From Patescibacteria group bacterium (GTDB lineage Bacteria; Patescibacteriota; Kazan-3B-28; UBA10110), in NCBI GenBank assembly GCA_016936175.1, contig JAFGPN010000003.1, positions 1-58,777 of the forward strand: a stretch of 58,777 nucleotides of DNA, in the 5' to 3' direction. Shown here one piece after another: positions 3,672 to 53,285 of this stretch. Below the pieces are notes generated by a model. It searched no databases and had not been told where the DNA came from. It was given only the letters and a program-made list of their open reading frames with translations. The number at the start of each line of letters is the position of its first letter. The stretch's first letter is position 1. Made by a program: the position numbers and the translations under genes.

Positions 3672-6461
3672 TTATGCTCCATGACATTTCTTATACTTTT
3701 TTCCGCTGCCGCATGGACAGGGATCATTGCGGCCAATCTTGGCTTTTTTATCATTAGGATCTCGCACCGCGCTCCCTCTGCTGTCACCCTGAACTGACGA
3801 CGGTTTCCTTGCGTCGTCATCCTGGCTTGCCTGCCCGCCCGTAGCCTTGGCGTAGGAGGGTCCAGGATCGTAAGATTCTGGAGTCTTCTGCTGTCCAACA
3901 GAATCCCCAGAATGACGGGGTTGGGGATCAGAATGACGCTCGGGGGGCATTTCTTTTTTCTCGTCTTCAAAATCTCCCGCCGGTTCCGCGCCACCTTGTA
4001 AACTATAATCCGCGTCCGGCGTAGTTCTGCCATCCGGCAGAACGGAGCCTGGGCTATCGGCTCCCTTCATTGCTAGGTTTTTCTTCTCCGCCATCTCTCG
4101 ACTCTCCGGTGTCTGCCTTTGCGCCTCAACTCGTACCTTAAATATCATGTGGGTAACATCCGAGGCGATGGTTCTGAGCAACCGCTGGAACATGGTATAT
4201 GATTCTTGTTTGTATTCTGCTAACGGGTCCTTTTGGGCATAACCCTGCAGATTAATGCACTCGCGCATTCGCACCATTGCATCGAGATGTTCTACCCACA
4301 AAACATCTACCACCCGCAAGTAAACGGCCTTTTCCACCTGCCGCCAAGTTTCTACCCCAGATGATTGTTCGCGCTCTTCGTATAGTTTTTGGGCGCGCTT
4401 GAGCAGCAGATCGATAATCACCTGTGTGTTCTTGGCATCCTCGATCTCTAACTTAGTTGATTCGCCCAAGTCGAAGATGGTGTTGATTCCTTCGATAACT
4501 TCTTTAATATTCCACTGCTTTTTATCGTCAGTGCAGTGAAAGTTAACTAAACCCTCTATCTCGGACTTGATATCTTCCCAAATTTCATCTTTAAGACTTT
4601 CTTTTAATAAACTATCGCGCCGCTTGGCGTAGATGACGGTGCGTTGGCGGTTCATTACATCGTCGTACTGAACTACGTGTTTGCGGATATCAAAGTTATG
4701 GCCCTCGACCTTTTTCTGCGCCGCCTCGATACTATTGCTGATCATTTTATGCTCTAACGGCTGATCTTCGGGGATGCGCATCGTCTTCATCATGTTTTTT
4801 ATCCGCTCGCTCCCAAACAACCGCATCAGCTCATCTTCCATCGAGACAAAGAACTGCGAAGAGCCCGGATCGCCCTGTCGCCCAGACCGGCCGCGTAACT
4901 GATTGTCGATTCGGCGAGATTCGTGCCGCTCGGTGCCTAAAATATGCAAACCGCCCACCTCGATTACACCTTCGCCCAATTTAATATCGGTACCACGACC
5001 AGCCATGTTGGTGGCGATAGTAACCGCATTTTTTTGGCCTGCATCTTTAATAATCTCGGCTTCCCGTTCGTGGTTCTTGGCGTTTAACACATTGTGTTTA
5101 ACACCCTCTGTCATCAACATGTCCGAAAGTAACTCGGATTTTTCGATAGCGATAGTGCCAACCAAGATTGGCTGACCCTTGGCGTGCCGCTCTTTGATCT
5201 CCCGAACCACCGCTCCAAATTTAGCCGCCTCGCTAATAAACACCAGATCGTTTAAATCTTTGCGAACCATCGGCCGATTGGTCGGGACTACCACCACTTC
5301 GAGGCCATAGATCTTGTAGAATTCTTCCTCTTCGGTCTTGGCGGTACCCGTCATTCCAGCTAATTTGTTATAGAGGCGAAAATAGTTCTGGAAGGTAATG
5401 GTAGCCATCGTTCGGCTCTCTTGTTTTACCTCAACTGCTTCTTTGGCTTCGATTGCTTGATGCAGACCTTCGGAGTAACGCCTACCCACCATTAATCGGC
5501 CGGTAAATTCATCAACAATAATTACTTCACCATCTTTGACCACATAATCGACATCCTTTTTATATAGCGAGTGGGCTCTTAAGGCCTGTTCAATATGATG
5601 CGCCATCGTTACATCCCCGCCTTCGTAAAAACCTTTGATACCCATTAGCTGTTCTACCTTGGTGATGCCCTCGTCCGTCAGAATGGCTGTCCGCATTTTT
5701 TCGTCGATGTTGTAATCGACATTCGGAGTTAACGACGGCACAATTCGAGAAAACTTTCTGTACCATTCGGTCGAATCCTCGTCCGGCGCCGAGATAATTA
5801 ATGGAGTTCTGGCTTCATCGATTAAAATCGAGTCGACCTCATCTACAATGGCAAAATTAAGTTCGCGCTGAACCAGATCTTCTGGCCGAGTGGCCATGTT
5901 ATCTCTAAGATAGTCGAAACCAAATTCGTTATTAGTGCCGTAAATCACATCCGAGGCATACACCGCTCGGCGCTCGTGTTGTGGAGTATCGTGAGTAATG
6001 GCACCGACAGTTAGACCCAAAAATTGATAGATTTGGCCCATCCATTCTGCATCTCGTTTGGCCAGGTAGTCGTTAACCGTAACTACATGCACCCCTTTGC
6101 CGGTTAGCGCATTAAGATAAACCGGCAGAGTAGCGGCCAAGGTTTTACCCTCACCAGTGCGCATCTCGGAGATCTTACCTTGGTGCAGAACGATGCCCCC
6201 CATTAACTGAGTATCAAAAGCTCGCTCACCTAATACACGGTGAGCCGCCTCTCTGGTTACTGCAAACGCTTCTGGCAGTAGCTCGTCTAATGTTTCCCCC
6301 TTAGCCAATCTCTCCTTAAATTCCGTGGTTTTAGACTTTAGCTCATCATCGGATAACGATTTAATCTTATCCTCAAATGAATTAATTAGGGTCACGATTG
6401 GACCCAGTTGGTTTACCGCCTTTTTGTTTGGATCCCCCAGTAGCTTGTCTAACCAGCTCAT
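3672..6461 (-). CDS. secA: Preprotein translocase SecA
   Basis: MRTGEGKT, DEVDSILIDEARTPLIIS, C-terminal CPCGSGKKYKKCH; start taken at MSWLDK. Confidence 0.98.
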   Translation of the reverse strand: MSWLDKLLGDPNKKAVNQLGPIVTLINSFEDKIKSLSDDELKSKTTEFKERLAKGETLDELLPEAFAVTREAAHRVLGERAFDTQLMGGIVLHQGKISEMRTGEGKTLAATLPVYLNALTGKGVHVVTVNDYLAKRDAEWMGQIYQFLGLTVGAITHDTPQHERRAVYASDVIYGTNNEFGFDYLRDNMATRPEDLVQRELNFAIVDEVDSILIDEARTPLIISAPDEDSTEWYRKFSRIVPSLTPNVDYNIDEKMRTAILTDEGITKVEQLMGIKGFYEGGDVTMAHHIEQALRAHSLYKKDVDYVVKDGEVIIVDEFTGRLMVGRRYSEGLHQAIEAKEAVEVKQESRTMATITFQNYFRLYNKLAGMTGTAKTEEEEFYKIYGLEVVVVPTNRPMVRKDLNDLVFISEAAKFGAVVREIKERHAKGQPILVGTIAIEKSELLSDMLMTEGVKHNVLNAKNHEREAEIIKDAGQKNAVTIATNMAGRGTDIKLGEGVIEVGGLHILGTERHESRRIDNQLRGRSGRQGDPGSSQFFVSMEDELMRLFGSERIKNMMKTMRIPEDQPLEHKMISNSIEAAQKKVEGHNFDIRKHVVQYDDVMNRQRTVIYAKRRDSLLKESLKDEIWEDIKSEIEGLVNFHCTDDKKQWNIKEVIEGINTIFDLGESTKLEIEDAKNTQVIIDLLLKRAQKLYEEREQSSGVETWRQVEKAVYLRVVDVLWVEHLDAMVRMRECINLQGYAQKDPLAEYKQESYTMFQRLLRTIASDVTHMIFKVRVEAQRQTPESREMAEKKNLAMKGADSPGSVLPDGRTTPDADYSLQGGAEPAGDFEDEKKEMPPERHSDPQPRHSGDSVGQQKTPESYDPGPSYAKATGGQASQDDDARKPSSVQGDSRGSAVRDPNDKKAKIGRNDPCPCGSGKKYKKCHGA
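3816..3937. repeat. REP doublet translated in frame within the SecA C-terminal linker
   Basis: GTCATCCTGG...CCAGGATC plus GATTCTGG...CCAGAATGAC; the first unit is near-identical to 40225-40275. Confidence 0.8.
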
Positions 6462-15525: not shown

Positions 15526-16383
15526 TTATACCTTCCGTTTAGTAGTAGCTCTTTTTTCTCGTTTATCGGCCTCTAACTTGTCCTCCTCTTGCTTGGCCTC
15601 GGCTAACTGCACCTCTTTTTGCTCCAACACTTCGGCAATAGCCTCGCTATCTAGCACCTGCTCCTCTGGTTCTGCAGTTGCCGGTTTAGATTTAACTGCT
15701 CCTCCTGGACGCTTGCCTCCCAAGGTATCCGCCACGGCCTGAGTTATCATCCGAATGCCCTGTTTAGCATCATCGTTAGCTGGAATCACAAATTCAATTC
15801 CCTTAGGGTTAGCGTTAGTATCAACCATAGCGATTACCGGGATGCCCAGACACAACGCCTCTTTTAGAGCAATCTTTTCTCTTAATACATCAACAATAAA
15901 CAAGGCATCTGGCAGAGCGGTAAGATTGTCTACCCCTCCAAACGACTCCTCAAGCTTGGCCAACTCTTTTTCCAGCAACCCGATCTCTTTTTTGGTCATA
16001 TCGCCAAAATCTTGGGTGGCAAATTTTTCTCGTAATTGTTTGAGGTAGTTAATTCTATTTTTCATGGTAGAAAAATTCGTCAACAGACCACCCGGCCACC
16101 GAGTAGCTACGTGGGGCAATCCAGCTGTTTTGGCCACCTCAGCAACAATATCGCTTGCTTGACGCTTGGTCCCAACAAACAAAATTGTTCCATCTTGTTT
16201 AGCCAATTTGGCCACAAAATCCAGTGCTACCTTCAGCCGCTGTTCGGTCTGCACCAGATCAATAATATGGATGCCGTCTCTGGCATCAAAAATATAGGGC
16301 TTCATATCGGGGTGCCAACGAAAAGTCTGGTGCCCAAAGTGTAGCCCCGCCTCTAACATCTCTTCTACCGATAGTTTTCCCAT
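15526..16383 (-). CDS. rpsB: 30S ribosomal protein S2
   Basis: AGLHFGH, FVGTKRQA, RWPGGLLTN, DTNANP, PANDD. Confidence 0.98.
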   Translation of the reverse strand: MGKLSVEEMLEAGLHFGHQTFRWHPDMKPYIFDARDGIHIIDLVQTEQRLKVALDFVAKLAKQDGTILFVGTKRQASDIVAEVAKTAGLPHVATRWPGGLLTNFSTMKNRINYLKQLREKFATQDFGDMTKKEIGLLEKELAKLEESFGGVDNLTALPDALFIVDVLREKIALKEALCLGIPVIAMVDTNANPKGIEFVIPANDDAKQGIRMITQAVADTLGGKRPGGAVKSKPATAEPEEQVLDSEAIAEVLEQKEVQLAEAKQEEDKLEADKREKRATTKRKV

Positions 16384-16488
16384 GCCTAATTCTCCTTAAT
16401 TACTTCCGGCCGGATCCCCTCGGATACAGATCCCGGTAAACCGGGACAGGATGCATCCGATCCCCGAACCGTGCTTATTACTCCTAAA

Positions 16489-16517
16489 AGATTAACCGAA
16501 CTTTAGCCATCAGTCAA
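16489..16517 (-). promoter_or_regulatory. rpsB promoter
   Basis: TTGACT-17-TAATCT on the minus strand. Confidence 0.6.
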
Positions 16518-16653
16518 GTTTAGTGTGGTGGGCGATACCCTCCTACATTCAATCTCATCGCAAATAGGTCATCAGCCTCTTGCGATATAGATTTCACTAC
16601 GAGCGGGCAGGCTGGATTCGACTCTGCTGTCCAGCAGAAGACTTTCGGACTTG

Positions 16654-16777
16654 CCCCGTTAGATTTCACTGGTGGTCGCAACAGGACTCGAACCTGTGAC
16701 CTTTCGGATGTGAACCGAACGCTCTAACCAACTGAGCTATGCGACCCCTTTGTCGCGACCTCGGAAATTTAACGGGG
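16654..16777. mobile_element. 124-bp inverted-repeat cassette containing tRNA-Val
   Basis: CCCCGTTAGATTTC (16654-16667) versus GAAATTTAACGGGG (16764-16777), 13/14 match. Confidence 0.55.
16670..16746 (-). tRNA. tRNA-Val(CAC)
   Basis: Full cloverleaf GGTCGCA...TGCGACC-ACCA; anticodon loop TTCACAT; GGTTCGAGTCC. Confidence 0.95.
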
Positions 16778-16893
16778 TGAATGAACCAAACGCTCTAACC
16801 AATCCCGAAGGGACCCCGTTGGGGCTGAGGTAATCGCCCTCGGCTAAATTATACACGAATACTTCCACCCAGCTCACTGATCAGGGCGGCTTG

Positions 16894-16955
16894 CCCCGTA
16901 GTGAAACCGCCGTTGATTTTTTAACCAAAAAAATCCGGCGTTTCTACTACCGGGG
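16894..16955. repeat. Long imperfect palindrome with CCCCGTAG...CTACCGGGG ends
   Basis: Nested inverted segments. Confidence 0.6.
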
Positions 16956-16975
16956 TTTTAATTTATAATGAGTTC

Positions 16976-17593
16976 ATGCACGCTCAACCAGATTCTGCCA
17001 CTCGTTCCCGAAAACCACGCAATATAGTCTTAGTGGTTTTTGTCAGTATCGTCATCTTTATCTATGACGTGTTTAAAACCGTCACGACCGTATTGGGCGT
17101 GGCGTTTTTAATTCGTTTTTTCTTAATTCAGCCGTTCTATGTCAGCGGTCAGTCTATGGATCCCACCTTTGAAGACAATCAGTATATCATCGTTGATCAG
17201 GTATCATACCGCTTCCATCAGCCTAATCGGGGAGATGTAGTAGTGTTCCGCTACCCCAAAAACCCGGCTTTTACCTTTATCAAGCGAATAGTCGGATTAC
17301 CGGGTGAAACCGTGCTGGTTCACAACGGAGAGGTAAGTGTCTTTAATAAGCAGTACCCAGACGGTACTAAGCTAACCGAACCTTACATCCCCTATCAGAC
17401 CAGCGGCGAGGTCCGAATCCAGCTTAAAAAAGACGAGTTCTTTGTGTTGGGTGATAATCGGCCTAACAGCTCTGATTCACGAAGCTGGGGAGTCTTAGAT
17501 CGCAGTTTTGTTATCGGCAAGGTTTGGGTAGTGCTATATCCGTTCGACCAGTTTAAAACCGTTCAAACACCGTCTTACGGCAAAGGCCTCTAG
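16976..17593 (+). CDS. lepB: Signal peptidase I
   Basis: GQSMDPT, FIKRIVGLPGE, GDNRPNSSDSR. Confidence 0.96.
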   Translation: MHAQPDSATRSRKPRNIVLVVFVSIVIFIYDVFKTVTTVLGVAFLIRFFLIQPFYVSGQSMDPTFEDNQYIIVDQVSYRFHQPNRGDVVVFRYPKNPAFTFIKRIVGLPGETVLVHNGEVSVFNKQYPDGTKLTEPYIPYQTSGEVRIQLKKDEFFVLGDNRPNSSDSRSWGVLDRSFVIGKVWVVLYPFDQFKTVQTPSYGKGL

Positions 17594-20222: not shown

Positions 20223-23222
20223 TTACTTTTTCTTTAAGCCCAAACTAACCGGGTGATTATTCAGCTTAATCTCTGACTTTGCCAATTTAGCATCCGCTTT
20301 AATCTCAGTTGCCAAGATTTCGCCCTGAATGTATTCAGCAAATTTGGTCAGAGTTTTTTTAATTAATTCATCCGAAGAAGAATAAAACAACTCTATTCTA
20401 TCCGACAACGCCAACCCAGACTCTTTACGCATAGTTTGCACCGCCCGAACTATCTCACGAGCTAATCCTTCGGCTTCTAACGCTGGGGTTAACTTGGTAT
20501 CCAACTGGTTAGCGGCCGCTTCGAACTGAATCTTTTTTACGTTTAATTCGTCTGCTATCAAGGCGGCCAATTCGTCGCCTAACTTTTTTTCTTTTGTCTG
20601 CATTAAAGCCAGCGGTTGCCGCACTTTTATCTTAGCCTCCTCCCTTAACGCGTGCCCAGCCTCTACCACCCTGCGGGCAGCTGCCATCTGGACTAACAGC
20701 TTACTGTCTGGCTCCGTCGCTTTTGGCCAATCTGTTAAATGAACCGATGGGGGATTAGCATCAGTTTTGATTGCTCCATACACCATCTCGGCGAACATTG
20801 GCATAAAGGGCGCCAGGATTAGCGAAGTTGAACGCAAAACCTGGTAGAGAGTTTGATAAGCCTGTTGTTTGTCTGCTGTATCCTCGTTTTTCCAAAACCG
20901 CTTACGACTTCGACGAACATACCAGTTAGAGGTGTCGTCAACTAATTTTTCAATCGCCAAACCAGCGTTCATCATATCGTAAACTTCCAGGCGCGCGGTT
21001 ACATCAGTAATCACTTCGTTTACTCGAGCCAACATCCACCGATCAAGCAGGTTTTTGGGCTTAGCGATTTTGGCGTTGGGTTGCCAGCCATCTAAATTAG
21101 CATAAGTGGTAAAGAAAAATAAAGTATTCCATAACGTTAAAACTAATCGGCGGGTAACTTGCTTTAACTCATTTTCGTCAAAACTTTTGGGTAACGCTGG
21201 TTGATTGATGGTACACAAATGCCAACGCAGCACGTCCGAGCCATATTTATTAAAGATATCCCACGGATCCACCATATTACCCTTCGACTTGCTCATCTTC
21301 TTACCGTGCTTATCCATAATGTGGCCGTTCACCAGCACATTTTTATAAGGAGCCCCCTTGTCCAACAAGGTGGAGATGGCCATTAGCGTATAAAACCAGC
21401 CTCGAGTCTGATCGATGCCCTCGGCAATAAAATCGGCTGGGAAAGCGGTCGCAGACCGTCCCGGTTTACCGGGAATACCGTCTATCCGCTCCTTATTTTC
21501 GAAGGGATAGTGCCACTGGGCAAACGGCATCGAGCCACTGTCGAACCAGACATCAATCACCTCCGGCACCCGGGTATATTCCTTGCCATCTTTAACCAGA
21601 ACAATCTCATCGACAAATGGTTTGTGCGGATTAAATTGTTTCTTGTCATCCCAAACTCGTTTCGGGATCTTTTTATTAGATTCTGAACCAAGTTCAGAAT
21701 GACCGGTAACGAGTTTGGGATCTTTGGCTAACGATTTGAGCTCTTCAAAACTACCGATACAGATATAGTCATCGCCATTTCGCCATAGTGGCAACGGCGT
21801 GCCCCAATATCGATCTCGCGAGATAGCCCAATCCTTAACTTCTTTTAGCCATTCGCCGAAGCGACCTTCTTTAATATGTTCTGGAATCCAATTAACGGTT
21901 TGATTATTAGCAATTAATTTATCTCTTAACTGCGACATCTTGATAAACCATGAGTGCATAGCATAGTACAACAGTGCCGTATCGCATCGCCAACAAAACG
22001 GATACTCGTGTTTGTATGGCAAGGCTTTAAACAACAATCCCCGTTTTTCTAAATCAGCGACAATCCCCTGCTCTACCTCGGGATCTTTAACGTACTTGCC
22101 GGCCCACTTTTCTACCCCGGGTAAGAACTTCCCTTCAAGAGAAACGGTGTGTACCTTCGGTAAATTAACCTGCTCTCCGAGCTGATAATCATCTTCTCCG
22201 TACATCACAGCGGTATGGACTACACCGGTCCCATCCTCGGTGGTAACAAAGTCGGCCGGATAGATTTTAAACGCATTGCCAAAATTTTCCACCGTGTCAG
22301 AGATCGAGCCCGGAAACAACGGCTCGTATTCTTTGCCAACTAAATTCTTGCCGGTAAACGTTTGAATTATCTTAGGCGCTTTATCAAAGACTTTCTCTAA
22401 TAAGTCTTTGGCTAAGATTACCTCGTCCGTGCCATCTTTTACTTTTACATATTTAATCTTGGCATCAACCGCCAAGGCCACATTGCCCGGCAGAGTCCAT
22501 GGCGTAGTTGTCCAAGCCAAAATATATACATTATTCTGACCCGCTGACCCGCTATCCCGCTGACCCGCTGTTTTAAGTTTAAACTTTACATAAATCGAGG
22601 TGTCTTCTACTTCTTTATAACCTTGCGCTACTTCATGGCTGGATAGAGCCGTGCCACAGCGCGGACAGTAGTGCACTACTTTGTGCCCCCGGTAGAGCAA
22701 CCCTTTATCCCAAACCTGTTTTATAATCCACCAGACTGATTCGATATAGTTAGGGTCATAGGTAATGTAGGGGTGCTCCAAGTCCAACCAAAAGCCGCTC
22801 CGGCGGGTAAACTCCTCCCAATCTTTTTTGTACTCCCAGACACTATTTTTAGCCTGCTCGTTGAACTCTGCTACCCCGTATTTTTCGATAGCCTGCTTGT
22901 TCTTGAGCCCCAGTTTTTTCTCGATGGCTATCTCCACCGGCAATCCATGGGTGTCCCAGCCTGCTTTCCGTTCTACCAAAAAACCCTGCATCGTCTTAAA
23001 CCGCGGGAAGATATCTTTAAAATAGCGGGCTATCAAGTGATGCAGACCCGGCTTAGCATTGGCAGTTGGTGGCCCCTCAAAAAAAACATACCGTTTGCCC
23101 TGAGCTTGTCGAAGGGCTAAACTTTTTTCGAAGATCTTAGTTTTATCCCAAAGTTCCAGAACTGCTTCTTCTTGTTCTGGCAGATTTAAATTGGAACTAA
23201 TTTTTTTGAACTGAGCCATCAC
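20223..23222 (-). CDS. ileS: Isoleucyl-tRNA synthetase, type 2
   Basis: EGPPTAN, GWDTHGLP, WTTTPWTLP, KMSKS; long type-2 C-terminus. Confidence 0.97.
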   Translation of the reverse strand: MMAQFKKISSNLNLPEQEEAVLELWDKTKIFEKSLALRQAQGKRYVFFEGPPTANAKPGLHHLIARYFKDIFPRFKTMQGFLVERKAGWDTHGLPVEIAIEKKLGLKNKQAIEKYGVAEFNEQAKNSVWEYKKDWEEFTRRSGFWLDLEHPYITYDPNYIESVWWIIKQVWDKGLLYRGHKVVHYCPRCGTALSSHEVAQGYKEVEDTSIYVKFKLKTAGQRDSGSAGQNNVYILAWTTTPWTLPGNVALAVDAKIKYVKVKDGTDEVILAKDLLEKVFDKAPKIIQTFTGKNLVGKEYEPLFPGSISDTVENFGNAFKIYPADFVTTEDGTGVVHTAVMYGEDDYQLGEQVNLPKVHTVSLEGKFLPGVEKWAGKYVKDPEVEQGIVADLEKRGLLFKALPYKHEYPFCWRCDTALLYYAMHSWFIKMSQLRDKLIANNQTVNWIPEHIKEGRFGEWLKEVKDWAISRDRYWGTPLPLWRNGDDYICIGSFEELKSLAKDPKLVTGHSELGSESNKKIPKRVWDDKKQFNPHKPFVDEIVLVKDGKEYTRVPEVIDVWFDSGSMPFAQWHYPFENKERIDGIPGKPGRSATAFPADFIAEGIDQTRGWFYTLMAISTLLDKGAPYKNVLVNGHIMDKHGKKMSKSKGNMVDPWDIFNKYGSDVLRWHLCTINQPALPKSFDENELKQVTRRLVLTLWNTLFFFTTYANLDGWQPNAKIAKPKNLLDRWMLARVNEVITDVTARLEVYDMMNAGLAIEKLVDDTSNWYVRRSRKRFWKNEDTADKQQAYQTLYQVLRSTSLILAPFMPMFAEMVYGAIKTDANPPSVHLTDWPKATEPDSKLLVQMAAARRVVEAGHALREEAKIKVRQPLALMQTKEKKLGDELAALIADELNVKKIQFEAAANQLDTKLTPALEAEGLAREIVRAVQTMRKESGLALSDRIELFYSSSDELIKKTLTKFAEYIQGEILATEIKADAKLAKSEIKLNNHPVSLGLKKK
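21645..21703. repeat. REP doublet in frame inside ileS
   Basis: GTCATCCC..GGGATCT / AGATTCTGAA..TTCAGAATGAC; compare intergenic 53228-53279. Confidence 0.8.
22536..22570. repeat. 8-bp tandem repeat (CTGACCCG)x4 inside ileS
   Basis: Direct reading; related arrays at 50120-50151 and 54025-54056. Confidence 0.8.
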
Positions 23223-27551: not shown

Positions 27552-27574
27552 CGTACTGCTCCTTTCTTCTTGGT

Positions 27575-27800
27575 GTCATTCTGAACTCGTTTCAGAATCT
27601 TTCTGATTCGAGATCCTGAAATAAATTCAGGATGACATTAAATTATTTAATAAATTGTTTAATTATCCTTATTGTCATTCCGACCTCTCCTCTTTGTCAT
27701 TCTGACCTCTCCTCTTTGTCATTCTGAGTGAAACGAAGAATCTATAAATATTCTTATATCCTTCGTCCCGACTCGTCTGGGCTCGAGGACGACAAGTCGA
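27575..27800. repeat. Cluster of GTCAT-family REP palindromes, with a direct duplication
   Basis: GTCATTCTGAA..CAGAATCT, GATCCTGAA..CAGGATGAC, and (GTCATTCYGACCTCTCCTCTTT)x2. Confidence 0.8.
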
Positions 27801-33887: not shown

Positions 33888-34205
33888 CTATTTAATTAAA
33901 CTATCTGCATCAATCGGCTCCCACTCGCCATCCACTTCGCGATAGACCGTAAGATGGCTAACTTTTTCGTCCGGCGAATAGACATATTCATACTGCGCCG
34001 AGCTTTTACCACGGCGATGTGCCCCGGTTACCTTTTTATCTAAAATCGCTGGCCGCACCGTGCGCACCAGCTTAACTCTCCCGATCGGCGCCTCAAAGAT
34101 TATCGTTTCGATCTCGGACACATCTTCTTGCGTTTTCTCTCGCGAGAGCACCTTAAAATTCGTCAAAATCCGATCTAATACTTCTCCCCATTTATCATCT
34201 CTCAT
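33888..34205 (-). CDS. Hypothetical protein
   Basis: 105-aa ORF MRDDKW...; the ATG directly follows CTAACGGG. Confidence 0.75.
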   Translation of the reverse strand: MRDDKWGEVLDRILTNFKVLSREKTQEDVSEIETIIFEAPIGRVKLVRTVRPAILDKKVTGAHRRGKSSAQYEYVYSPDEKVSHLTVYREVDGEWEPIDADSLIK

Positions 34206-34491
34206 CCCGTTAGAAGCCCTTAGCAAAAAATAATTTTAACCGGTTTCGAATATATCGTTTACCCATAGCGGATTTGAGATATCGTTCTCGCGCCCTCGCA
34301 TCATCCCGCTCAAGAGACACTTCATAATAAATCAACTTCCACGGTGTTCCACAGATTTAGTTGATGTATTTTTATCGCCATTGTGGGTTAAAATTCTTTT
34401 TTACAGATCGTTGGTGAATCCAGTATACAGCTTCCCGTTGCGTTGACTAACCAGAACATAAATGTACCACTTAGATTGGATTCTAATGGGA
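34205..34491. mobile_element. 287-bp inverted-repeat cassette carrying a GIY-YIG gene
   Basis: TCCCGTTAGAA versus TTCTAATGGGA, 10/11 match; hisS TAG stop in the right arm, nuclease TAA stop in the left arm. Confidence 0.6.
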
Positions 34492-35810: not shown

Positions 35811-36707
35811 CTATCTCTCTCTCCGCCTACCCATCCATAACAAGATAGGAGCCGCAATAAAGATCGAAGAATAAGTTCCAATTACTATGCCAATTAGCAG
35901 TGCTAAAGTGAAAAACTTGAGGGTCGCACCGCCAAACAATGTCATCGCCAGCAATACTAACACCACCGTAAAAGAAGTATTAATAGAACGAACTACCGTT
36001 TCGGAGATACTATCATTACAGATGGTAATCAGGTCTTCGCCAGCCCGGCGACGGAGATTTTCCCGAATCCGATCAAAAGTAACAATGGTGTCGTGAACCG
36101 AGAAACCAAGCAGGGTTAACAAGGCGGCGATAAACATCCCATCCACTTCGGCCCCAAAATAATGGCTCATCACTGAGTAAGCTCCCAACAAAATAATCAC
36201 ATCATGAACCAAGGCAACCAATGCCCCAAAACCAAAATCCCACGAGGTCAGCGGTTTGGGCACTCGGCGAAAAGCATAAGCTAGATAAAGCATAATCCCC
36301 AACGCGGCGATGATTACGGCCAAAATCGCTTTTCTAACTATGTCGGCGCTAATCGTTGGGTCTACGCTCTCAAACCGCAACTCGGAAGCCTCGTCAAATT
36401 TAGTCTGGAGAAAGGCCAAGATGTCGTTCTTGTTTTGATTATCAATCTGAGCACTCCGGATAAAGTAGCGATCTCCCTCGGTTGATTGCGGAGCCACATC
36501 CAATCCAACCACTTGCTTATAAGCTTCGATAATCGCTGGTTTAACCTCTGCCCCATCTTTAGGACCAGCTAACTGCACCTCTAAATTAGTGCCACCAGCA
36601 AAATCAATTCCGGTGCGATAACCAAACACACTAATAGATGTGATACTAGACAGAATCAAGACCAACGAGACAATCAGCCAAATTTTACGAGCACCTAAAA
36701 TATTCAT
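35811..36707 (-). CDS. secF: Protein translocase subunit SecF
   Basis: GIDFAGGT, GFSVHDTIVTFDRIRE, RSINTS, GTYSSIFIA. Confidence 0.96.
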   Translation of the reverse strand: MNILGARKIWLIVSLVLILSSITSISVFGYRTGIDFAGGTNLEVQLAGPKDGAEVKPAIIEAYKQVVGLDVAPQSTEGDRYFIRSAQIDNQNKNDILAFLQTKFDEASELRFESVDPTISADIVRKAILAVIIAALGIMLYLAYAFRRVPKPLTSWDFGFGALVALVHDVIILLGAYSVMSHYFGAEVDGMFIAALLTLLGFSVHDTIVTFDRIRENLRRRAGEDLITICNDSISETVVRSINTSFTVVLVLLAMTLFGGATLKFFTLALLIGIVIGTYSSIFIAAPILLWMGRRRER

Positions 36708-36837
36708 CCCGTTAGAAATTCTTGGCGCAAAAATACTTTAGTTTTTTTACGCGCGCTAATTATTATGGAGTGAAGTGAGCAGTTATTCATCTTTAGTTAA
36801 TGGTTTAGGGTTATCTTCGACAAATTTCTAATGGGAT
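36706..36837. mobile_element. 132-bp inverted-repeat cassette between secD and secF
   Basis: ATCCCGTTAGAAATT versus AATTTCTAATGGGAT, 14/15 match; the secF ATG overlaps the left arm. Confidence 0.65.
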
Positions 36838-39669: not shown

Positions 39670-40253
39670 TGAAAAAACGGCTGTTTATCGCCATCAACTT
39701 CGACTCTGCCACCAGGCTGGCTATTGCTCGCCTGATGTCGCAACTCCCCAACCAGCCGGGGCTAAACAAGGTCAAGGTTGATAATCTCCATCTTACCTTA
39801 TTATTTTTAGGCGATACCGAAGAGGAGCTAATCCCCCAAATCTCTCAGCAACTGGATGAGGTGTGCAAAGATTTTAGCTCCCTGAGCTTAAAATTTGGCC
39901 GTTTGGGCGGCTTCCCCGATCTCAAACACCCCCAAGTCATTTGGATTGGGCTGGAGGGTAACCACCTTAGCCAGCTCCACCAGGTCATCGCTGAGCGGCT
40001 ATCCCCCCTAGTGCCAACAGCCGACACCAAGCCCTTCCGCCCTCATCTAACCGTCGCCAGATCTAATTCTCACCTCCACCCAGAATCTACCGTTAAATTT
40101 CTTCTCCAACTCAGCCAACAACCCGTCAATCTGCCCCCGGTAGCAGTCTCTCAAATAGACTTAATGGAAAGCGCCCTCGCGGCGGGTGGCTCTATCTATA
40201 AAAGAATATCCACTCACCCCTTCCGTCGTCCTGGCTTGTCTGCCCGCCCGTAG
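39669..40253 (+). CDS. thpR: RNA 2',3'-cyclic phosphodiesterase, 2H family
   Basis: RLFIA, HLTLLFLG, PHLTVAR. Confidence 0.92.
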   Translation: MKKRLFIAINFDSATRLAIARLMSQLPNQPGLNKVKVDNLHLTLLFLGDTEEELIPQISQQLDEVCKDFSSLSLKFGRLGGFPDLKHPQVIWIGLEGNHLSQLHQVIAERLSPLVPTADTKPFRPHLTVARSNSHLHPESTVKFLLQLSQQPVNLPPVAVSQIDLMESALAAGGSIYKRISTHPFRRPGLSARP

Positions 40254-40388
40254 CCTTGGCGCAGGAGGGTCCAGTACCGTATAATTCTACGATTCTGGAG
40301 TCAGCCGATGATCATCGGCTCGACATTGGGAATCCAGGCCTGGATCCTGAATCCGAACTTGGCCCTTGGCCAGTCAGTCCAGGATGAC
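40225..40388. repeat. Cluster of GTCAT-family REP palindromes
   Basis: The first unit matches secA-internal 3816-3865; the thpR stop lies within it. Confidence 0.75.
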
Positions 40389-46695: not shown

Positions 46696-46815
46696 CCCCG
46701 TTAGAAGTCCGGAGAAGCCCTGGGAATAATGCAGAGCCACAGCGCATTAGTTGTCGTTTCACTATCCGCCAACCCCATTACATTAGCCAATCTCATCAGC
46801 GACTTCTAACGGGGT
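46695..46815. mobile_element. 121-bp cassette with 15-bp perfect inverted repeats ACCCCGTTAGAAGTC
   Basis: Arms at 46695-46709 and 46801-46815. Confidence 0.65.
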
Positions 46816-48889: not shown

Positions 48890-48991
48890 CTGTTGCCTGC
48901 CCGTCCGTAGTCCCGGCCTATCGGGACGAAGGGGGGCTTATTCCTAAAGAAGGATCAATGTCATACGATTCTGGACAAGCCAGAATGACGG

Positions 48992-50197: not shown

Positions 50198-50304
50198 AAA
50201 GGTGTAACAAAGGAAGTCTACTATAGGCCCGAAGGGGTGTCAACCCCACTGACCGATATGGTATAGTTGGGAGTGAAGTTATTCCAAATTTAGGAGGTGG
50301 AGTG

Positions 50305-53216: not shown

Positions 53217-53227
53217 ATCTTCCTTCT

Positions 53228-53279
53228 GTCATCCTGAATTTATTTCAGAATCTAGATTCTGAAATTAGTTCAGAATGAC
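53228..53279. repeat. GTCAT-family REP doublet
   Basis: GTCATCCTGAATTTATTTCAGAATCT / AGATTCTGAAATTAGTTCAGAATGAC; similar at 29869-29951 and 54198-54249. Confidence 0.85.
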
Positions 53280-53285
53280 ATCGTA

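What the first reader, a model, noticed from the sequence alone, without database searches (positions are those of the whole stretch)
16526..16853. A tRNA inside a tRNA: intact tRNA-Val(CAC) carried by a cassette into the anticodon region of a second tRNA
SEEN on the minus strand, in order: TATAAT; GGGCGATTACCTCAG; a 22-nt insert CCCCAACGGGGTCCCTTCGGGA (related to 2743-2765); TTGGTTAGAGCGTTTGGTTCA (D-arm and anticodon 5' side, nearly identical to the inner tRNA); the cassette arm; the full tRNA-Val(CAC); the other arm; about 110 nt of hairpins; and ATCGCCC-ACCA (16526-16536), which pairs 7/7 with the opening GGGCGAT. TAGATTTCACT is directly repeated at 16588 and 16660. INFERENCE: an original Val-type tRNA was destroyed by insertions while a cassette-borne tRNA supplies function from the same promoter. 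Alternatively, the outer acceptor stem is still formed and processed.
Basis: partly seen in the sequence, partly recalled or inferred. Interest (0 to 1): 0.75.

Follow-up and report, generated by a model that had tools for sequence, protein, structure and literature searches.

The report
Replacement tRNA cassette splitting tRNA-Val
In this ultra-small (Kazan-group, Patescibacteria) bacterium the original valine tRNA gene upstream of rpsB has been split by a small hairpin-ended piece of mobile DNA that carries its own working copy of the same tRNA; the old gene is now a dead shell that has taken three more small insertions, an arrangement that recurs in related bacteria and that I could not find described.

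Summary
On the minus strand, 16839-16526 tiles without gaps into 14 segments: five pieces of an outer tRNA-Val(CAC) "shell" and four inserts.

- Three same-genus genomes carry the shell sequence as one intact tRNA behind the same TATAAT and before rpsB, so the before and after states are both seen.
- The main insert (16781-16650) lies in the anticodon loop. Its arms are the terminal inverted repeats (CCCCGTTAGAA...) of a family with 11 copies in this genome. Seven of eight short copies have 4-bp T-N-N-A target duplications. One full-length copy encodes an 86-aa GIY-YIG nuclease.
- Its cargo is a complete tRNA-Val(CAC) allele that differs from the shell by four compensatory base-pair swaps.
- The shell cannot give a tRNA-Val even if all inserts are removed. 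No splicing endonuclease, RtcB or group I intron was found.
- The genome holds a second nest (tRNA-Met). All nine tRNA-bearing cassettes found in the order sit inside a shell of the same tRNA type.

Best reading: a DNA-level "disrupt and replace" mobile cassette, not an intron. How it spreads is inferred. I found no published description.

The parts
16848..16853 (-). TATAAT -10 box of the resident tRNA-Val promoter; the shell's first base is 9 nt downstream
   Evidence: Sequence. The stretch TCGTGTATAATTTAGCCGAG is identical in G001/L076 and near-identical in G002, L111 and L112. No second promoter-like site and no terminator lie between here and rpsB.
16825..16839 (-). Shell piece 1: acceptor 5' strand GGGCGAT, positions 8-9, and the D-stem 5' strand. 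The D-stem reads CCTC; G10 has changed to C.
   Evidence: Aligns to nt 1-15 of the intact same-genus tRNA with one mismatch.
16803..16824 (-). Insert 1: 22 nt made of two mini-hairpins (CCCCAACGGGG + TCCCTTCGGGA) in the D-loop of the shell
   Evidence: The same insert lies at the same D-loop position in shell fragments of G002 (CCCCCACGGGGTCCCTTCGGGA) and of the more distant L118 (CCCCAACGGGGCCCCTTCGGGG), with a compensatory T-A to C-G change.
16782..16802 (-). Shell piece 2: rest of the D-arm, the anticodon stem 5' strand (TTTGG) and loop bases TTCA
   Evidence: 20/21 identical to the ancestral and to the inner tRNA.
16650..16781 (-). Insert 2: the 132-bp cassette in the anticodon loop. In order it holds TTCA, left arm 16777-16764, a 17-nt spacer carrying a GGTCGCGA micro-fragment, the inner tRNA, right arm 16669-16654, and CAAG.
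   Evidence: The arms match the CCCCGTTAGAA...TTCTAACGGGG family. The TTCA...CAAG flanks recur at the tRNA-Met nest in contig C18 and appear inverted together with the arms in L156, so they belong to the element.
16670..16746 (-). Inner tRNA-Val(CAC), 77 nt with encoded CCA. It is the only intact tRNA-Val(CAC) gene in the assembly.
   Evidence: ARAGORN and Rfam RF00005 at 74.6 bits. It differs from the ancestral allele at 8 positions, which make 4 compensatory pair swaps: 3:70, 6:67, 7:66 and 51:63.
16640..16649 (-). Shell piece 3: T38, the anticodon stem 3' strand CCGAA, and the variable region (AGTC, one base lost)
   Evidence: Alignment to the ancestral tRNA.
16623..16639 (-). Insert 3: the 17-nt palindrome TTCTGCTGGACAGCAGA in the T-arm of the shell. 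It overlaps what remains of the T-stem 5' strand (CTGG).
   Evidence: It belongs to a family with at least 10 loci in this genome. Identical copies lie at C5:36643 (in the T-loop of a displaced tRNA-Glu 3' fragment) and at C4:16722, and a variant lies in the D-loop of the tRNA-Pro shell at C10.
16612..16622 (-). Shell piece 4: damaged T-loop and T-stem 3' strand (GTCGAATCCAG). One T of T54/T55 is missing.
   Evidence: Alignment to the ancestral tRNA.
16537..16611 (-). Insert 4: a 75-nt conserved rod-like structured module between the T-stem and the acceptor 3' strand (position 65/66)
   Evidence: Found in 18 of 26 genomes of the order at 1-10 copies each. In an alignment of 30 copies, 92% of cells are paired against about 45% in the slid controls, and 11 pairs show compensatory change. 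No Rfam family matches. It is always followed directly by a fragment of a stable-RNA gene.
16526..16536 (-). Shell piece 5: acceptor 3' strand ATCGCCC, discriminator A and CCA
   Evidence: Identical to the 3' end of the intact same-genus tRNA.
16890..16955 (-). A separate palindromic element 36 nt upstream of the promoter (CCCCGGTAGTAGAAAC...GTTTCACTACGGGG + CAAG)
   Evidence: Sequence. It is present in G002 and absent in G001 at the same place.

Best explanation
**What it is.** This is a DNA-level 'disrupt and replace' event at the resident tRNA-Val(CAC) gene of a candidate division Kazan (Patescibacteria) bacterium.

**The cassette.** A 132-bp gene-less cassette sits in the anticodon loop of the resident gene.
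- Its ends are the terminal inverted repeats of a small mobile family (CCCCGTTAGAA...TTCTAACGGGG).
- The family's one full-length copy in this genome encodes only an ~86-aa GIY-YIG nuclease.
- The cassette carries a complete, foreign allele of the same tRNA.

**How the locus works now (inferred).**
- The inner tRNA is transcribed from the old promoter as part of a precursor of about 314 nt or longer.
- The ordinary tRNA end-processing enzymes then cut it out.
- It now supplies the tRNA-Val(CAC) function.

**The outer gene.** It is a dead shell. It has lost the anticodon, G10 and part of the T-loop. It has also taken three further hairpin-type insertions:
- 22 nt in the D-loop;
- a 17-nt palindrome in the T-arm;
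- a 75-nt structured module at position 65/66.

These probably persist only in shells, because the same insertions in a working tRNA would be lethal.

**How it spreads (inferred).**
- The whole nest is copied into intact tRNA-Val alleles by recombination.
- The conserved outer tRNA halves serve as the homology.
- A break made in the intact gene by a GIY-YIG nuclease may trigger the copying.
- Repeated rounds would give the multi-layer nests seen in relatives.
For: **Shown**
1. Before and after states are both seen. G001/L076/L110 and L112 carry one intact GGGCGAT...ATCGCCCACCA tRNA-Val(CAC) behind the same promoter and before rpsB; L111 carries the same promoter-tRNA module intact but inverted relative to rpsB. 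The window's shell is 67/77 identical to that tRNA once the inserts are removed.
2. The arms are the ends of a mobile family.
   - This genome has 11 copies.
   - Seven of 8 short copies without a tRNA have perfect 4-nt T-N-N-A direct repeats.
   - C1:14016-14293 encodes an 86-aa GIY-YIG protein (PF01541, E = 4e-17).
   - Homologues of that protein occur in 157 of 301 genomes of the phylum.
3. The inner tRNA is a distinct functional allele. All 8 differences from the shell type are compensatory pair swaps.
4. The shell is dead.
   - ARAGORN with introns allowed finds only the inner gene.
   - The shell with all inserts removed is not called at default settings. At a lowered threshold it is called with a wrong anticodon.
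5. No known splicing route was found.
   - No group I intron match at E <= 10.
   - No tRNA splicing endonuclease and no RtcB in the genome; the positive controls gave hits.
6. The arrangement recurs.
   - A second nest lies at tRNA-Met in C18, with the same arms and flanks.
   - All 9 tRNA-bearing cassettes found in the order (Met x5, Ala x2, Val, Arg) lie in shells of the same tRNA type.
   - Nests or shell remnants lie at the same rpsB-upstream locus in G011, L117, L118, L121 and L115.
7. Nuclease-plus-tRNA versions exist.
   - [5' shell]-[GIY-YIG gene]-[full tRNA] is found at C10 (Pro) and C13 (Gln) of this genome.
   - It is also found at 6 of 30 nuclease loci sampled across the phylum; two of these also have a 3' shell.
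8. tRNA alleles move between lineages.
   - The ATCGCCC type is resident in G001 and is the shell here and in L121.
   - The TGGGCCC type is resident in G008, the shell in G011 and the inner gene in L121.
   - The shell fragment with the 22-nt insert is shared by G000 and G002, although by rpsB identity G002 is closer to genomes with intact alleles.

**Inferred:** transcription from the old promoter, release of the inner tRNA by RNase P and 3' processing, and the mode of spread.
Against: - No reads or RNA data could be examined, so assembly, expression and processing of this particular locus are untested.
- The cassette has no nuclease gene of its own. No cleavage specificity is known for any of these nucleases.
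- The two tRNA-bearing cassettes in this genome lack the 4-bp target duplication that the gene-less copies have. They carry fixed TTCA...CAAG flanks instead. Simple transposition therefore does not explain them.
- How one arm unit came to hold Val, Met, Ala or Arg cargo is unexplained.
- All shells examined keep a perfectly paired acceptor stem, and their inserts sit in cloverleaf loops. That could also be read as selection on the folded outer RNA.
- tRNA-Val(UAC) is present and might cover GUG codons, so the inner copy need not be essential.
Confidence: 0.8

Rival explanations
1. The nest is a working two-in-one gene. All inserts, including the one that holds a whole tRNA, are removed from the precursor RNA and the outer halves are joined, so one promoter gives two tRNA-Val molecules. 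Alternatively the outer halves stay paired as a split tRNA.
For: - The outer acceptor stem is 7/7 paired and is followed by ACCA; it closes in the predicted fold (z = -3.5).
- All four inserts lie in or next to cloverleaf loops, and the anticodon stem is kept (TTTGG/CCGAA).
- Shells of several relatives also keep perfect acceptor stems of different sequence.
- CPR rRNA genes are known to carry many short non-intron insertions (PMC11270868).
Against: - With every insert removed, the outer sequence lacks C36/A37 of the anticodon, G10 and a T of T54/T55. ARAGORN does not call it.
- Same-genus genomes have the uninterrupted gene.
- No tRNA splicing endonuclease, RtcB or group I intron was found.
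- The 75-nt module occurs antisense in another shell (L158), so it is not an oriented RNA signal.
- No essential tRNA was found only in interrupted form.
Confidence: 0.06
2. No mobile element is involved. The locus is an old local duplication of tRNA-Val followed by decay, and the inverted repeats are ordinary genome-wide palindromes that landed there by chance.
For: - The genome is full of short palindromic repeats.
- G002 shows a 5' fragment followed by a full tRNA of the same allele type, which looks like a partial tandem duplication.
Against: - A tandem duplication gives A-B-A-B, not the nested A-[A-B]-B seen here.
- The inner allele differs from the shell by four compensatory swaps, so it is not a recent copy.
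- Nine of nine tRNA-bearing cassettes in the order are nested in a shell of the same tRNA type with the same arm unit.
- The arms belong to a family with target-site duplications and a nuclease-encoding member.
Confidence: 0.05
3. The cassette moved by simple cut-or-copy transposition into any T-N-N-A site. It is seen only in tRNA genes of its own type because insertions into other tRNA types are lethal (a selection filter with no homology-based homing).
For: - The gene-less copies clearly transpose, leaving 4-bp T-N-N-A duplications.
- The tRNA-Val anticodon loop contains TTCA.
Against: - Insertions of a tRNA-bearing cassette between genes should be harmless and common, yet 0 of 9 are intergenic, whereas about 66 gene-less copies are found elsewhere.
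- The tRNA-bearing cassettes lack target duplications.
- Multi-layer nests, and shell features shared across lineages such as the 22-nt D-loop insert, fit copying of the whole nest better.
Confidence: 0.07
4. Assembly artefact: reads from two tRNA-Val alleles of co-occurring strains were joined wrongly.
For: The genome is a metagenome bin. Reads could not be checked.
Against: - The 314 nt tile exactly into ordered shell pieces and inserts.
- The same architecture appears in independent assemblies at the same locus and at other tRNAs.
- The locus lies 16 kb inside a 58.8-kb contig with no N.
Confidence: 0.02

Closest known systems
tRNA-dependent lysogeny of actinobacteriophages (Guerrero-Bustamante and Hatfull 2024, PMC10865867)
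   Same: A mobile element inserts into an essential host tRNA gene without rebuilding it. [quoted passage not shown]
   Different: - There the element is a whole temperate phage with a tyrosine integrase and an attP/attB core.
- Here it is a 132-bp cassette with inverted-repeat ends and no gene other than the tRNA, inside the anticodon loop.
- Here the nests can be several layers deep.
Free-standing GIY-YIG homing endonucleases, especially phage T4 SegB in the tRNA gene cluster (PMC2330249; also PMC13096335)
   Same: A GIY-YIG nuclease is associated with tRNA genes. SegB recognises a conserved tRNA T-arm motif in DNA and drives copying of itself together with neighbouring tRNA genes into alleles that lack it.
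   Different: - SegB lies between intact tRNA genes of a phage and does not split a gene or leave shells.
- The nucleases here are ~86-aa proteins in which the only Pfam match is the GIY-YIG catalytic domain, found in bacterial chromosomes.
- The window's cassette has no nuclease.
- No cleavage activity has been tested.
Bacterial MITEs (for example Correia, ERIC, RPE)
   Same: Short, gene-less, with terminal inverted repeats, multi-copy, and (for the cargo-less copies here) with target-site duplications.
   Different: I know of no MITE that carries a functional tRNA cargo and lies nested in the gene of the same tRNA type. The autonomous partner here encodes a GIY-YIG nuclease rather than a classical transposase.
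Insertion sequences in rRNA genes of CPR bacteria (PMC11270868)
   Same: The same phylum. Stable-RNA genes are interrupted by short insertions that are not introns, located at loops, and some of them encode GIY-YIG proteins.
   Different: Those lie in rRNA genes that must still work, and they carry no replacement gene. That paper does not mention tRNA genes.
Group I introns in bacterial tRNA anticodon loops; archaeal and eukaryal tRNA introns; split or permuted tRNAs
   Same: An interruption in the anticodon loop, sometimes with further interruptions in the D- and T-arms.
   Different: - There is no ribozyme core and no splicing enzymes.
- The exons cannot make a tRNA.
- The 'intron' holds a complete tRNA.

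Membership tests
Group I intron in a tRNA gene | Conserved catalytic core (P3-P9) detectable with Rfam RF00028 | tested here: not met
   cmscan of 16300-17000 at E <= 10 lists no intron family.
Group I intron in a tRNA gene | Joining the exons restores a functional tRNA | tested here: not met
   The shell without its inserts lacks C36/A37 and a T-loop T, and ARAGORN does not call it.
Archaeal/eukaryal-type tRNA intron (bulge-helix-bulge, protein-spliced) | The genome encodes a tRNA splicing endonuclease (PF01974) and an RtcB-type ligase (PF01139) | tested here: not met
   Zero matches for both in the 90%-complete genome, while the control genomes gave hits.
Archaeal/eukaryal-type tRNA intron (bulge-helix-bulge, protein-spliced) | A bulge-helix-bulge motif at the exon-intron junctions | tested here: not met
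   By inspection, the junction is a 14-bp helix flanked by an 8-nt and a 5-nt unpaired stretch (TTCATTCA / CAAGT), not two 3-nt bulges around 4 bp.
MITE / inverted-repeat transposon family CCCCGTTAGAA (GIY-YIG-associated) | Terminal inverted repeats shared with multi-copy family members | tested here: met
   The arms are 13/14 complementary. The terminal CCCCGTTA / TAACGGGG is shared with 10 other copies in the genome and about 75 in the order.
MITE / inverted-repeat transposon family CCCCGTTAGAA (GIY-YIG-associated) | Target-site duplication flanking the copy | tested here: not met
   Seven of 8 cargo-less copies have a 4-nt T-N-N-A duplication. The window's cassette has TTCA on the left and CAAG on the right.
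MITE / inverted-repeat transposon family CCCCGTTAGAA (GIY-YIG-associated) | An autonomous member encoding the mobilising enzyme exists | tested here: inconclusive
   C1:14016-14293 has the same ends and encodes a GIY-YIG protein. That this protein moves the elements is not shown.
Integrase-mediated integrative element at a tRNA gene (including tRNA-dependent lysogeny) | An integrase gene, and att core repeats flanking the element | tested here: not met
   The insert holds no ORF apart from a spurious 53-aa frame. The flanks are lepB-like and rpsB genes. No direct repeat of the target is present.
Integrase-mediated integrative element at a tRNA gene (including tRNA-dependent lysogeny) | [quoted passage not shown] | tested here: met
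   Inner tRNA-Val(CAC) inside a tRNA-Val(CAC) shell.
Free-standing GIY-YIG homing endonuclease element (SegB-like) | A nuclease gene inside the mobile segment | tested here: not met
   There is none in the window's cassette. It is present in related nests at C10 and C13 of this genome and in L064 and L065.
Free-standing GIY-YIG homing endonuclease element (SegB-like) | The nuclease cuts the allele that lacks the element, and the segment is copied in by repair | not testable with these tools
   This needs enzyme assays or crosses. Only indirect support is available: alleles shared across lineages and layered nests.
Split or permuted tRNA gene | The halves together encode a complete functional tRNA with no intact copy elsewhere | tested here: not met
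   The halves are defective, and an intact copy lies between them.

The most novel reading that the evidence does not exclude
These nests could be the traces of a natural 'home-and-rescue' drive on tRNA genes of ultra-small bacteria.

- A minimal GIY-YIG nuclease breaks an intact tRNA gene.
- The break is repaired from an allele in which the gene is already split by a hairpin-ended cassette carrying a rescue copy.
- The cell then depends on the invader's tRNA.
- The rescue copy is itself a target, so nests grow in layers and tRNA alleles pass between lineages.
- The dead shells still carry conserved tRNA motifs. They would then become safe landing sites for other tiny hairpin elements that aim at the D-, anticodon- and T-loop sequences, including the uncatalogued 75-nt structured module.
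Probability: 0.4. Interest if true: 0.85.

Novelty: new variant of a known kind. Interest (0 to 1): 0.68.

Why it matters
**What it would show.** If the reading is right, an essential, single-copy tRNA gene can be taken over by a mobile element of barely 130 bp that brings its own replacement. This is the smallest form yet of the 'disrupt and compensate' strategy known from whole phages.

- It would explain how tRNA alleles move horizontally between lineages of Patescibacteria.
- It would explain why their tRNA loci are littered with gene fragments and hairpins.
- It may explain why small GIY-YIG genes are so common in these tiny genomes (157 of 301 sampled).

**Practical consequences.** tRNA finders report only the inner gene, so such loci are silently mis-annotated. 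Shells can also be mistaken for introns or split tRNAs.

**What this locus offers.** Intact, partly rearranged and nested alleles are all available within one genus. The 75-nt covarying module that always abuts a stable-RNA gene fragment is a separate lead that no catalogue holds.

Tried and rejected
**Searches that came back negative**
- Rfam at gathering and at E <= 10: only tRNA hits, with no intron, ribozyme or other family for any part of the locus.
- ARAGORN with introns allowed, and on the shell with inserts removed: the outer gene is not called.
- tmRNA or permuted tRNA: ARAGORN finds none here.
- A hammerhead-like reading of the CTGATGA in the 75-nt module: rejected. Most copies have CTAATGA, the helices do not fit, and no ribozyme family matched.
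- Viral contigs: no exact match to the inner tRNA 5' part or to the armed cassette.
- A hidden essential tRNA present only in interrupted form, which would force a splicing explanation: tRNA-Phe, Asn, Cys, Gly(GCC), Leu(CAG), Leu(GAG), Arg(CCG) and Pro(GGG) from relatives find no split copies. An apparent Phe hit in the C18 shell is only the shared D-arm, and the shell aligns best to tRNA-Met.
- Exact-protein look-up of rpsB to find other assemblies of the same strain: not on record.

**Analyses that did not settle the question**
- Strand of the 75-nt module from wobble pairs: 45 G-T against 18 A-C, but 27 of the G-T come from one conserved pair, so this is inconclusive. The module also occurs antisense in a shell.
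- The idea that TTCA and CAAG are remains of the split anticodon loop: rejected. The same flanks occur at Met and Ala nests, and they occur inverted with the arms at an Arg T-loop nest.

**Not possible**
Full report
**1. What is in the sequence**

I read the locus on the minus strand. From 16839 to 16526 it tiles, with no base left over, into 14 consecutive segments.

| Segment | Coordinates | Content |
|---|---|---|
| Shell 1 | 16839-16825 | GGGCGATTACCTCAG |
| Insert 1 | 16824-16803 | 22 nt, CCCCAACGGGGTCCCTTCGGGA |
| Shell 2 | 16802-16782 | TTGGTTAGAGCGTTTGGTTCA |
| Cassette flank | 16781-16778 | TTCA |
| Left arm | 16777-16764 | CCCCGTTAAATTTC |
| Spacer | 16763-16747 | 17 nt |
| Inner tRNA | 16746-16670 | tRNA-Val(CAC), 77 nt |
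| Right arm | 16669-16654 | GTGAAATCTAACGGGG |
| Cassette flank | 16653-16650 | CAAG |
| Shell 3 | 16649-16640 | TCCGAAAGTC |
| Insert 3 | 16639-16623 | 17-nt palindrome TTCTGCTGGACAGCAGA |
| Shell 4 | 16622-16612 | GTCGAATCCAG |
| Insert 4 | 16611-16537 | 75-nt module |
| Shell 5 | 16536-16526 | ATCGCCCACCA |

- A TATAAT box lies at 16853-16848, 9 nt before the first shell base.
- ARAGORN and Rfam see only the inner tRNA (74.6 bits).

**2. The host**

- The window is contig C12 of a 670-kb, 18-contig, 47.6% G+C genome with 40 tRNA genes.
- Its nearest relatives in the public collection are MAGs labelled candidate division Kazan or Patescibacteria.
- The genome has three tRNA-Val genes (GAC, UAC, CAC). 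The inner gene is its only intact CAC copy.

**3. The outer halves are the resident gene**

- In same-genus G001 (L009/L076; the same sequence in metagenome contig L110), the promoter stretch TCGTGTATAATTTAGCCGAG is followed directly by one uninterrupted tRNA-Val(CAC), GGGCGATTAGCTCAGTTGGTTAGAGCGTTCGGTTCACATCCGAAAGGTCACTGGTTCGAGTCCAGTATCGCCCACCA. The rpsB leader follows.
- L112 is the same. L111 has the same gene with the promoter-tRNA module inverted.
- With the four inserts removed, the window's shell aligns to this tRNA at 67 of 77 positions.
- The differences include G10 to C (which breaks a D-stem pair), loss of C36 and A37, loss of a variable-region G, loss of one T of T54/T55, and G to A in the T-loop.
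- ARAGORN with introns allowed does not find the outer gene. It does not call the insert-free shell at default settings either. At a lowered threshold it assigns a wrong anticodon.
- The outer gene is therefore a pseudogene that no precise excision could rescue.

**4. The inner tRNA is a different, functional allele**

It differs from the shell type at eight positions. These form four compensatory pair swaps: 3:70, 6:67 and 7:66 in the acceptor stem, and 51:63 in the T stem. This is what is expected of the same tRNA from another lineage, not of a recent local copy.

**5. The arms belong to a mobile family with a nuclease-encoding member**

- A search of the genome for CCCCG...CGGGG hairpins finds 11 elements with ends CCCCGTTAGA(A/G)... 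/ ...TCTAACGGGG. Ten of them are 106-124 bp long.
- Seven of the eight short copies without a tRNA are flanked by a perfect 4-nt direct repeat: TAAA, TTTA, TTGA, TCAA twice and TATA twice. All fit T-N-N-A. These are target-site duplications, so the family transposes.
- One of these copies is in the window, at 46696-46814.
- The one long copy, C1:14016-14293 (278 bp), encodes an 86-aa protein that matches the GIY-YIG catalytic domain (PF01541, E = 4e-17).
- Homologues of this protein occur in 157 of 301 sampled genomes of the phylum, often in several copies.
- Earlier notes of this scan on the same genome had proposed such a GIY-YIG mini-element with T-N-N-A duplications. I re-derived both points independently here.

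**6. The arrangement recurs**

*In this genome*
- Contig C18 carries a second nest: GTCAGGGTAGCTCAGTGGTAGAGCAGATGGATTCA | CCCCGTTAGAAATTA | tRNA-Met(CAT) 50225-50299 | ...ATTTCTAACGGGG | CAAGTAAGCC...CCCTGACACCA.
- The shell there aligns best to tRNA-Met, not to tRNA-Phe.

*In the order (26 genomes)*
- The pattern CCCCGTT-N(85-115)-AACGGGG finds about 75 elements in 15 genomes.
- Nine of them hold a tRNA: Met five times, Ala(CGC) twice, Val and Arg(UCU).
- I fetched the seven outside this genome. All seven, like the two here, lie inside a shell of the same tRNA type.
- Several have two or three layers. Many shells have hairpin inserts in the D- and T-loops.

*At the rpsB-upstream tRNA-Val locus itself*
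- G011 has a three-layer nest whose outermost shell is the allele that is intact in G008.
- L118 has a nest with the same 22-nt D-loop insert as the window.
- L121 has a shell of the window's ATCGCCC type around an inner TGGGCCC-type gene.
- L117 and L115 have piles of 3' fragments.
- Alleles that are resident in one lineage are therefore shell or cargo in another.

**7. Versions with a nuclease**

- In this genome, GIY-YIG genes lie between a 5' shell fragment and a complete tRNA of the same type at C10 (tRNA-Pro AGG) and at C13 (tRNA-Gln UUG). Others lie next to tRNA-Ala, tRNA-Ser and tRNA-Pro.
- Of 30 nuclease loci sampled across the phylum, nine have a tRNA within 400 nt.
- Six of those show [5' shell]-[nuclease]-[full tRNA]. 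Two of the six (L064 Lys, L065 Gln) also have the 3' shell.
- The closest homologues of the C1 protein are stand-alone elements without a tRNA. The tRNA-linked nucleases are more distant relatives.

**8. Not an intron**

- No group I core was found.
- No tRNA splicing endonuclease and no RtcB were found, while the positive controls gave hits.
- There is no bulge-helix-bulge motif.
- The exons are defective.
- Relatives have the uninterrupted gene.
- tRNAs absent from this 90%-complete bin, including Phe, Asn, Cys and Gly(GCC), are not hiding as interrupted genes.
- The predicted fold of the 314-nt RNA does close the outer acceptor stem and the arm helix (-119.9 kcal/mol, z = -3.5). A defined precursor shape is therefore plausible, but it is no evidence of splicing.

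**9. The other inserts**

*The 22-nt D-loop insert*
- It is shared, at the same position, by shell fragments in G002 and in the distant L118, with a compensatory change in its second hairpin.
- By rpsB identity, G002 is closer to genomes with intact alleles (89-91%) than to this genome (85%).
- The distribution of the shell therefore does not follow descent. This fits transfer of whole nests or repeated reversion.

*The 17-nt palindrome*
- It belongs to a family of at least ten loci.
- Copies lie in the T-loop of a displaced tRNA-Glu fragment and in the D-loop of the tRNA-Pro shell.

*The 75-nt module*
- It is the most interesting of the three. It occurs in 18 of 26 genomes of the order at 1-10 copies each.
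- It has no Rfam match.
- It folds as an irregular rod: P1, a 2-bp P1b, a 9-bp P2 with a bulged A, and P3 with a CTAATGA loop.
- In 30 aligned copies, 92% of cells pair, against 41-57% when the partners are slid. Eleven of 21 pairs show compensatory change, and 0 of 500 shuffles reach the observed covariation.
- Every copy is followed directly by a fragment of a stable-RNA gene. This is a tRNA 3' end starting in the T-loop or at position 66, or the reverse complement of the tmRNA 5' end; in the tmRNA case at G006 (L020) a 23-nt direct repeat of the target flanks the element.
- In L158 a variant lies antisense in a shell's D-loop. Wobble counts do not fix a strand. It therefore behaves as a DNA-level hairpin element rather than an oriented RNA signal.

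*Why shells collect these elements (my reading, an inference)*
- They still carry the conserved D-, anticodon- and T-loop sequences that such elements aim at.
- Hits in working tRNAs are removed by selection.

**10. How it spreads**

- Simple transposition with a selection filter predicts harmless intergenic copies of tRNA-bearing cassettes.
- None of nine is intergenic, and they lack target duplications.
- They carry fixed TTCA...CAAG flanks, which appear inverted together with the arms in the Arg nest L156. The flanks therefore travel with the element.
- Together with the layered nests and shared shell features, this favours copying of the whole nest into intact alleles, with the conserved tRNA halves as homology. 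A nuclease cut might start the process, as in intronless homing by T4 SegB (PMC2330249).
- This step is inferred.
- How the same arm unit came to hold four different tRNA types is unexplained.

**11. Comparison with what is known**

I found no description of tRNA-in-tRNA nests in the held literature.

The nearest published systems are:
- tRNA-dependent lysogeny (PMC10865867);
- SegB homing (PMC2330249, PMC13096335);
- MITEs;
- the short non-intron insertions of CPR rRNA genes, in a paper whose text does not mention tRNA (PMC11270868).

Earlier notes of this scan report similar nests in many other Patescibacteria. I treated them as leads.

**12. Limits**

Assembly of this exact locus, transcription from the old promoter and processing of the inner tRNA are therefore untested.
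- No nuclease activity is known.
- tRNA-Val(UAC) might make the CAC species dispensable.

Noticed in passing
G000 contig C18:50173-50363 (outside the window): A second nest in the same genome. A complete tRNA-Met(CAT) with the same arms and the same TTCA/CAAG flanks sits inside a decayed tRNA-Met shell (GTCAGGG...CCCTGACACCA). The orthologous nest in G002 has three layers and a nearly intact outer 3' half.
   Followed up: yes
G000 contigs C10:6250-6650 and C13:13590-13980 (outside the window): GIY-YIG nuclease genes lie between a 5' shell fragment and a complete tRNA of the same type (Pro AGG, Gln UUG). Each shell fragment has a hairpin insert in its D-loop. At C13 the promoter is duplicated too.
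   Followed up: partly
window 16537-16611 (minus strand) and 30 copies in relatives (alignment A1): A 75-nt rod-like module with strong covariation and no Rfam family. It is confined to this order at BLAST sensitivity and always abuts a fragment of a tRNA or tmRNA gene. Shorter versions that keep only the outer helix occur at window 3815-3879, 40224-40288 and 48893-48920.
   Followed up: partly
window 46696-46814: A cargo-less 119-bp copy of the same inverted-repeat family, flanked by a TCAA/TCAA target duplication. It shares its ends and parts of its core with the copy at C13:4850-4968.
   Followed up: partly
window 34200-34480: A degenerate GIY-YIG gene in two tblastn pieces (61% and 50% identical to the C1 nuclease). 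It lies next to a TCATCCCGTTAGAAGCC end, which suggests a decayed autonomous element. A similar end lies at 36704-36740.
   Followed up: no
window 16890-16955 (minus strand): Another palindromic element (CCCCGGTAGTAGAAAC...GTTTCACTACGGGG, followed by CAAG) lies just upstream of the tRNA promoter. It is present in G002 and absent in G001.
   Followed up: no
L002/L080 (G002) and L111: The promoter-plus-tRNA-Val module is inverted relative to lepB and rpsB in two same-genus genomes. In G002 it is bordered by palindromic elements on both sides.
   Followed up: no
window 16384-16500 (minus strand): The rpsB leader (AATAAGCACGGTTCGGGGATCGGATGCATCCTGTCCCGG...CCGGAAGTAATTAAGGAG) is conserved across the family and contains a variable hairpin. 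It is possibly an S2-type autoregulatory leader. No terminator separates it from the tRNA locus.
   Followed up: no
window, many sites (for example 21644-21703, 27574-27637, 53227-53280): Abundant short palindromes of the form GTCATYCTGR...YCAGRATC make up a separate repeat family that fills the intergenic space.
   Followed up: no
Right arms in relatives do not share it. Whether this is chance or a recombination joint is unexplained.
   Followed up: partly
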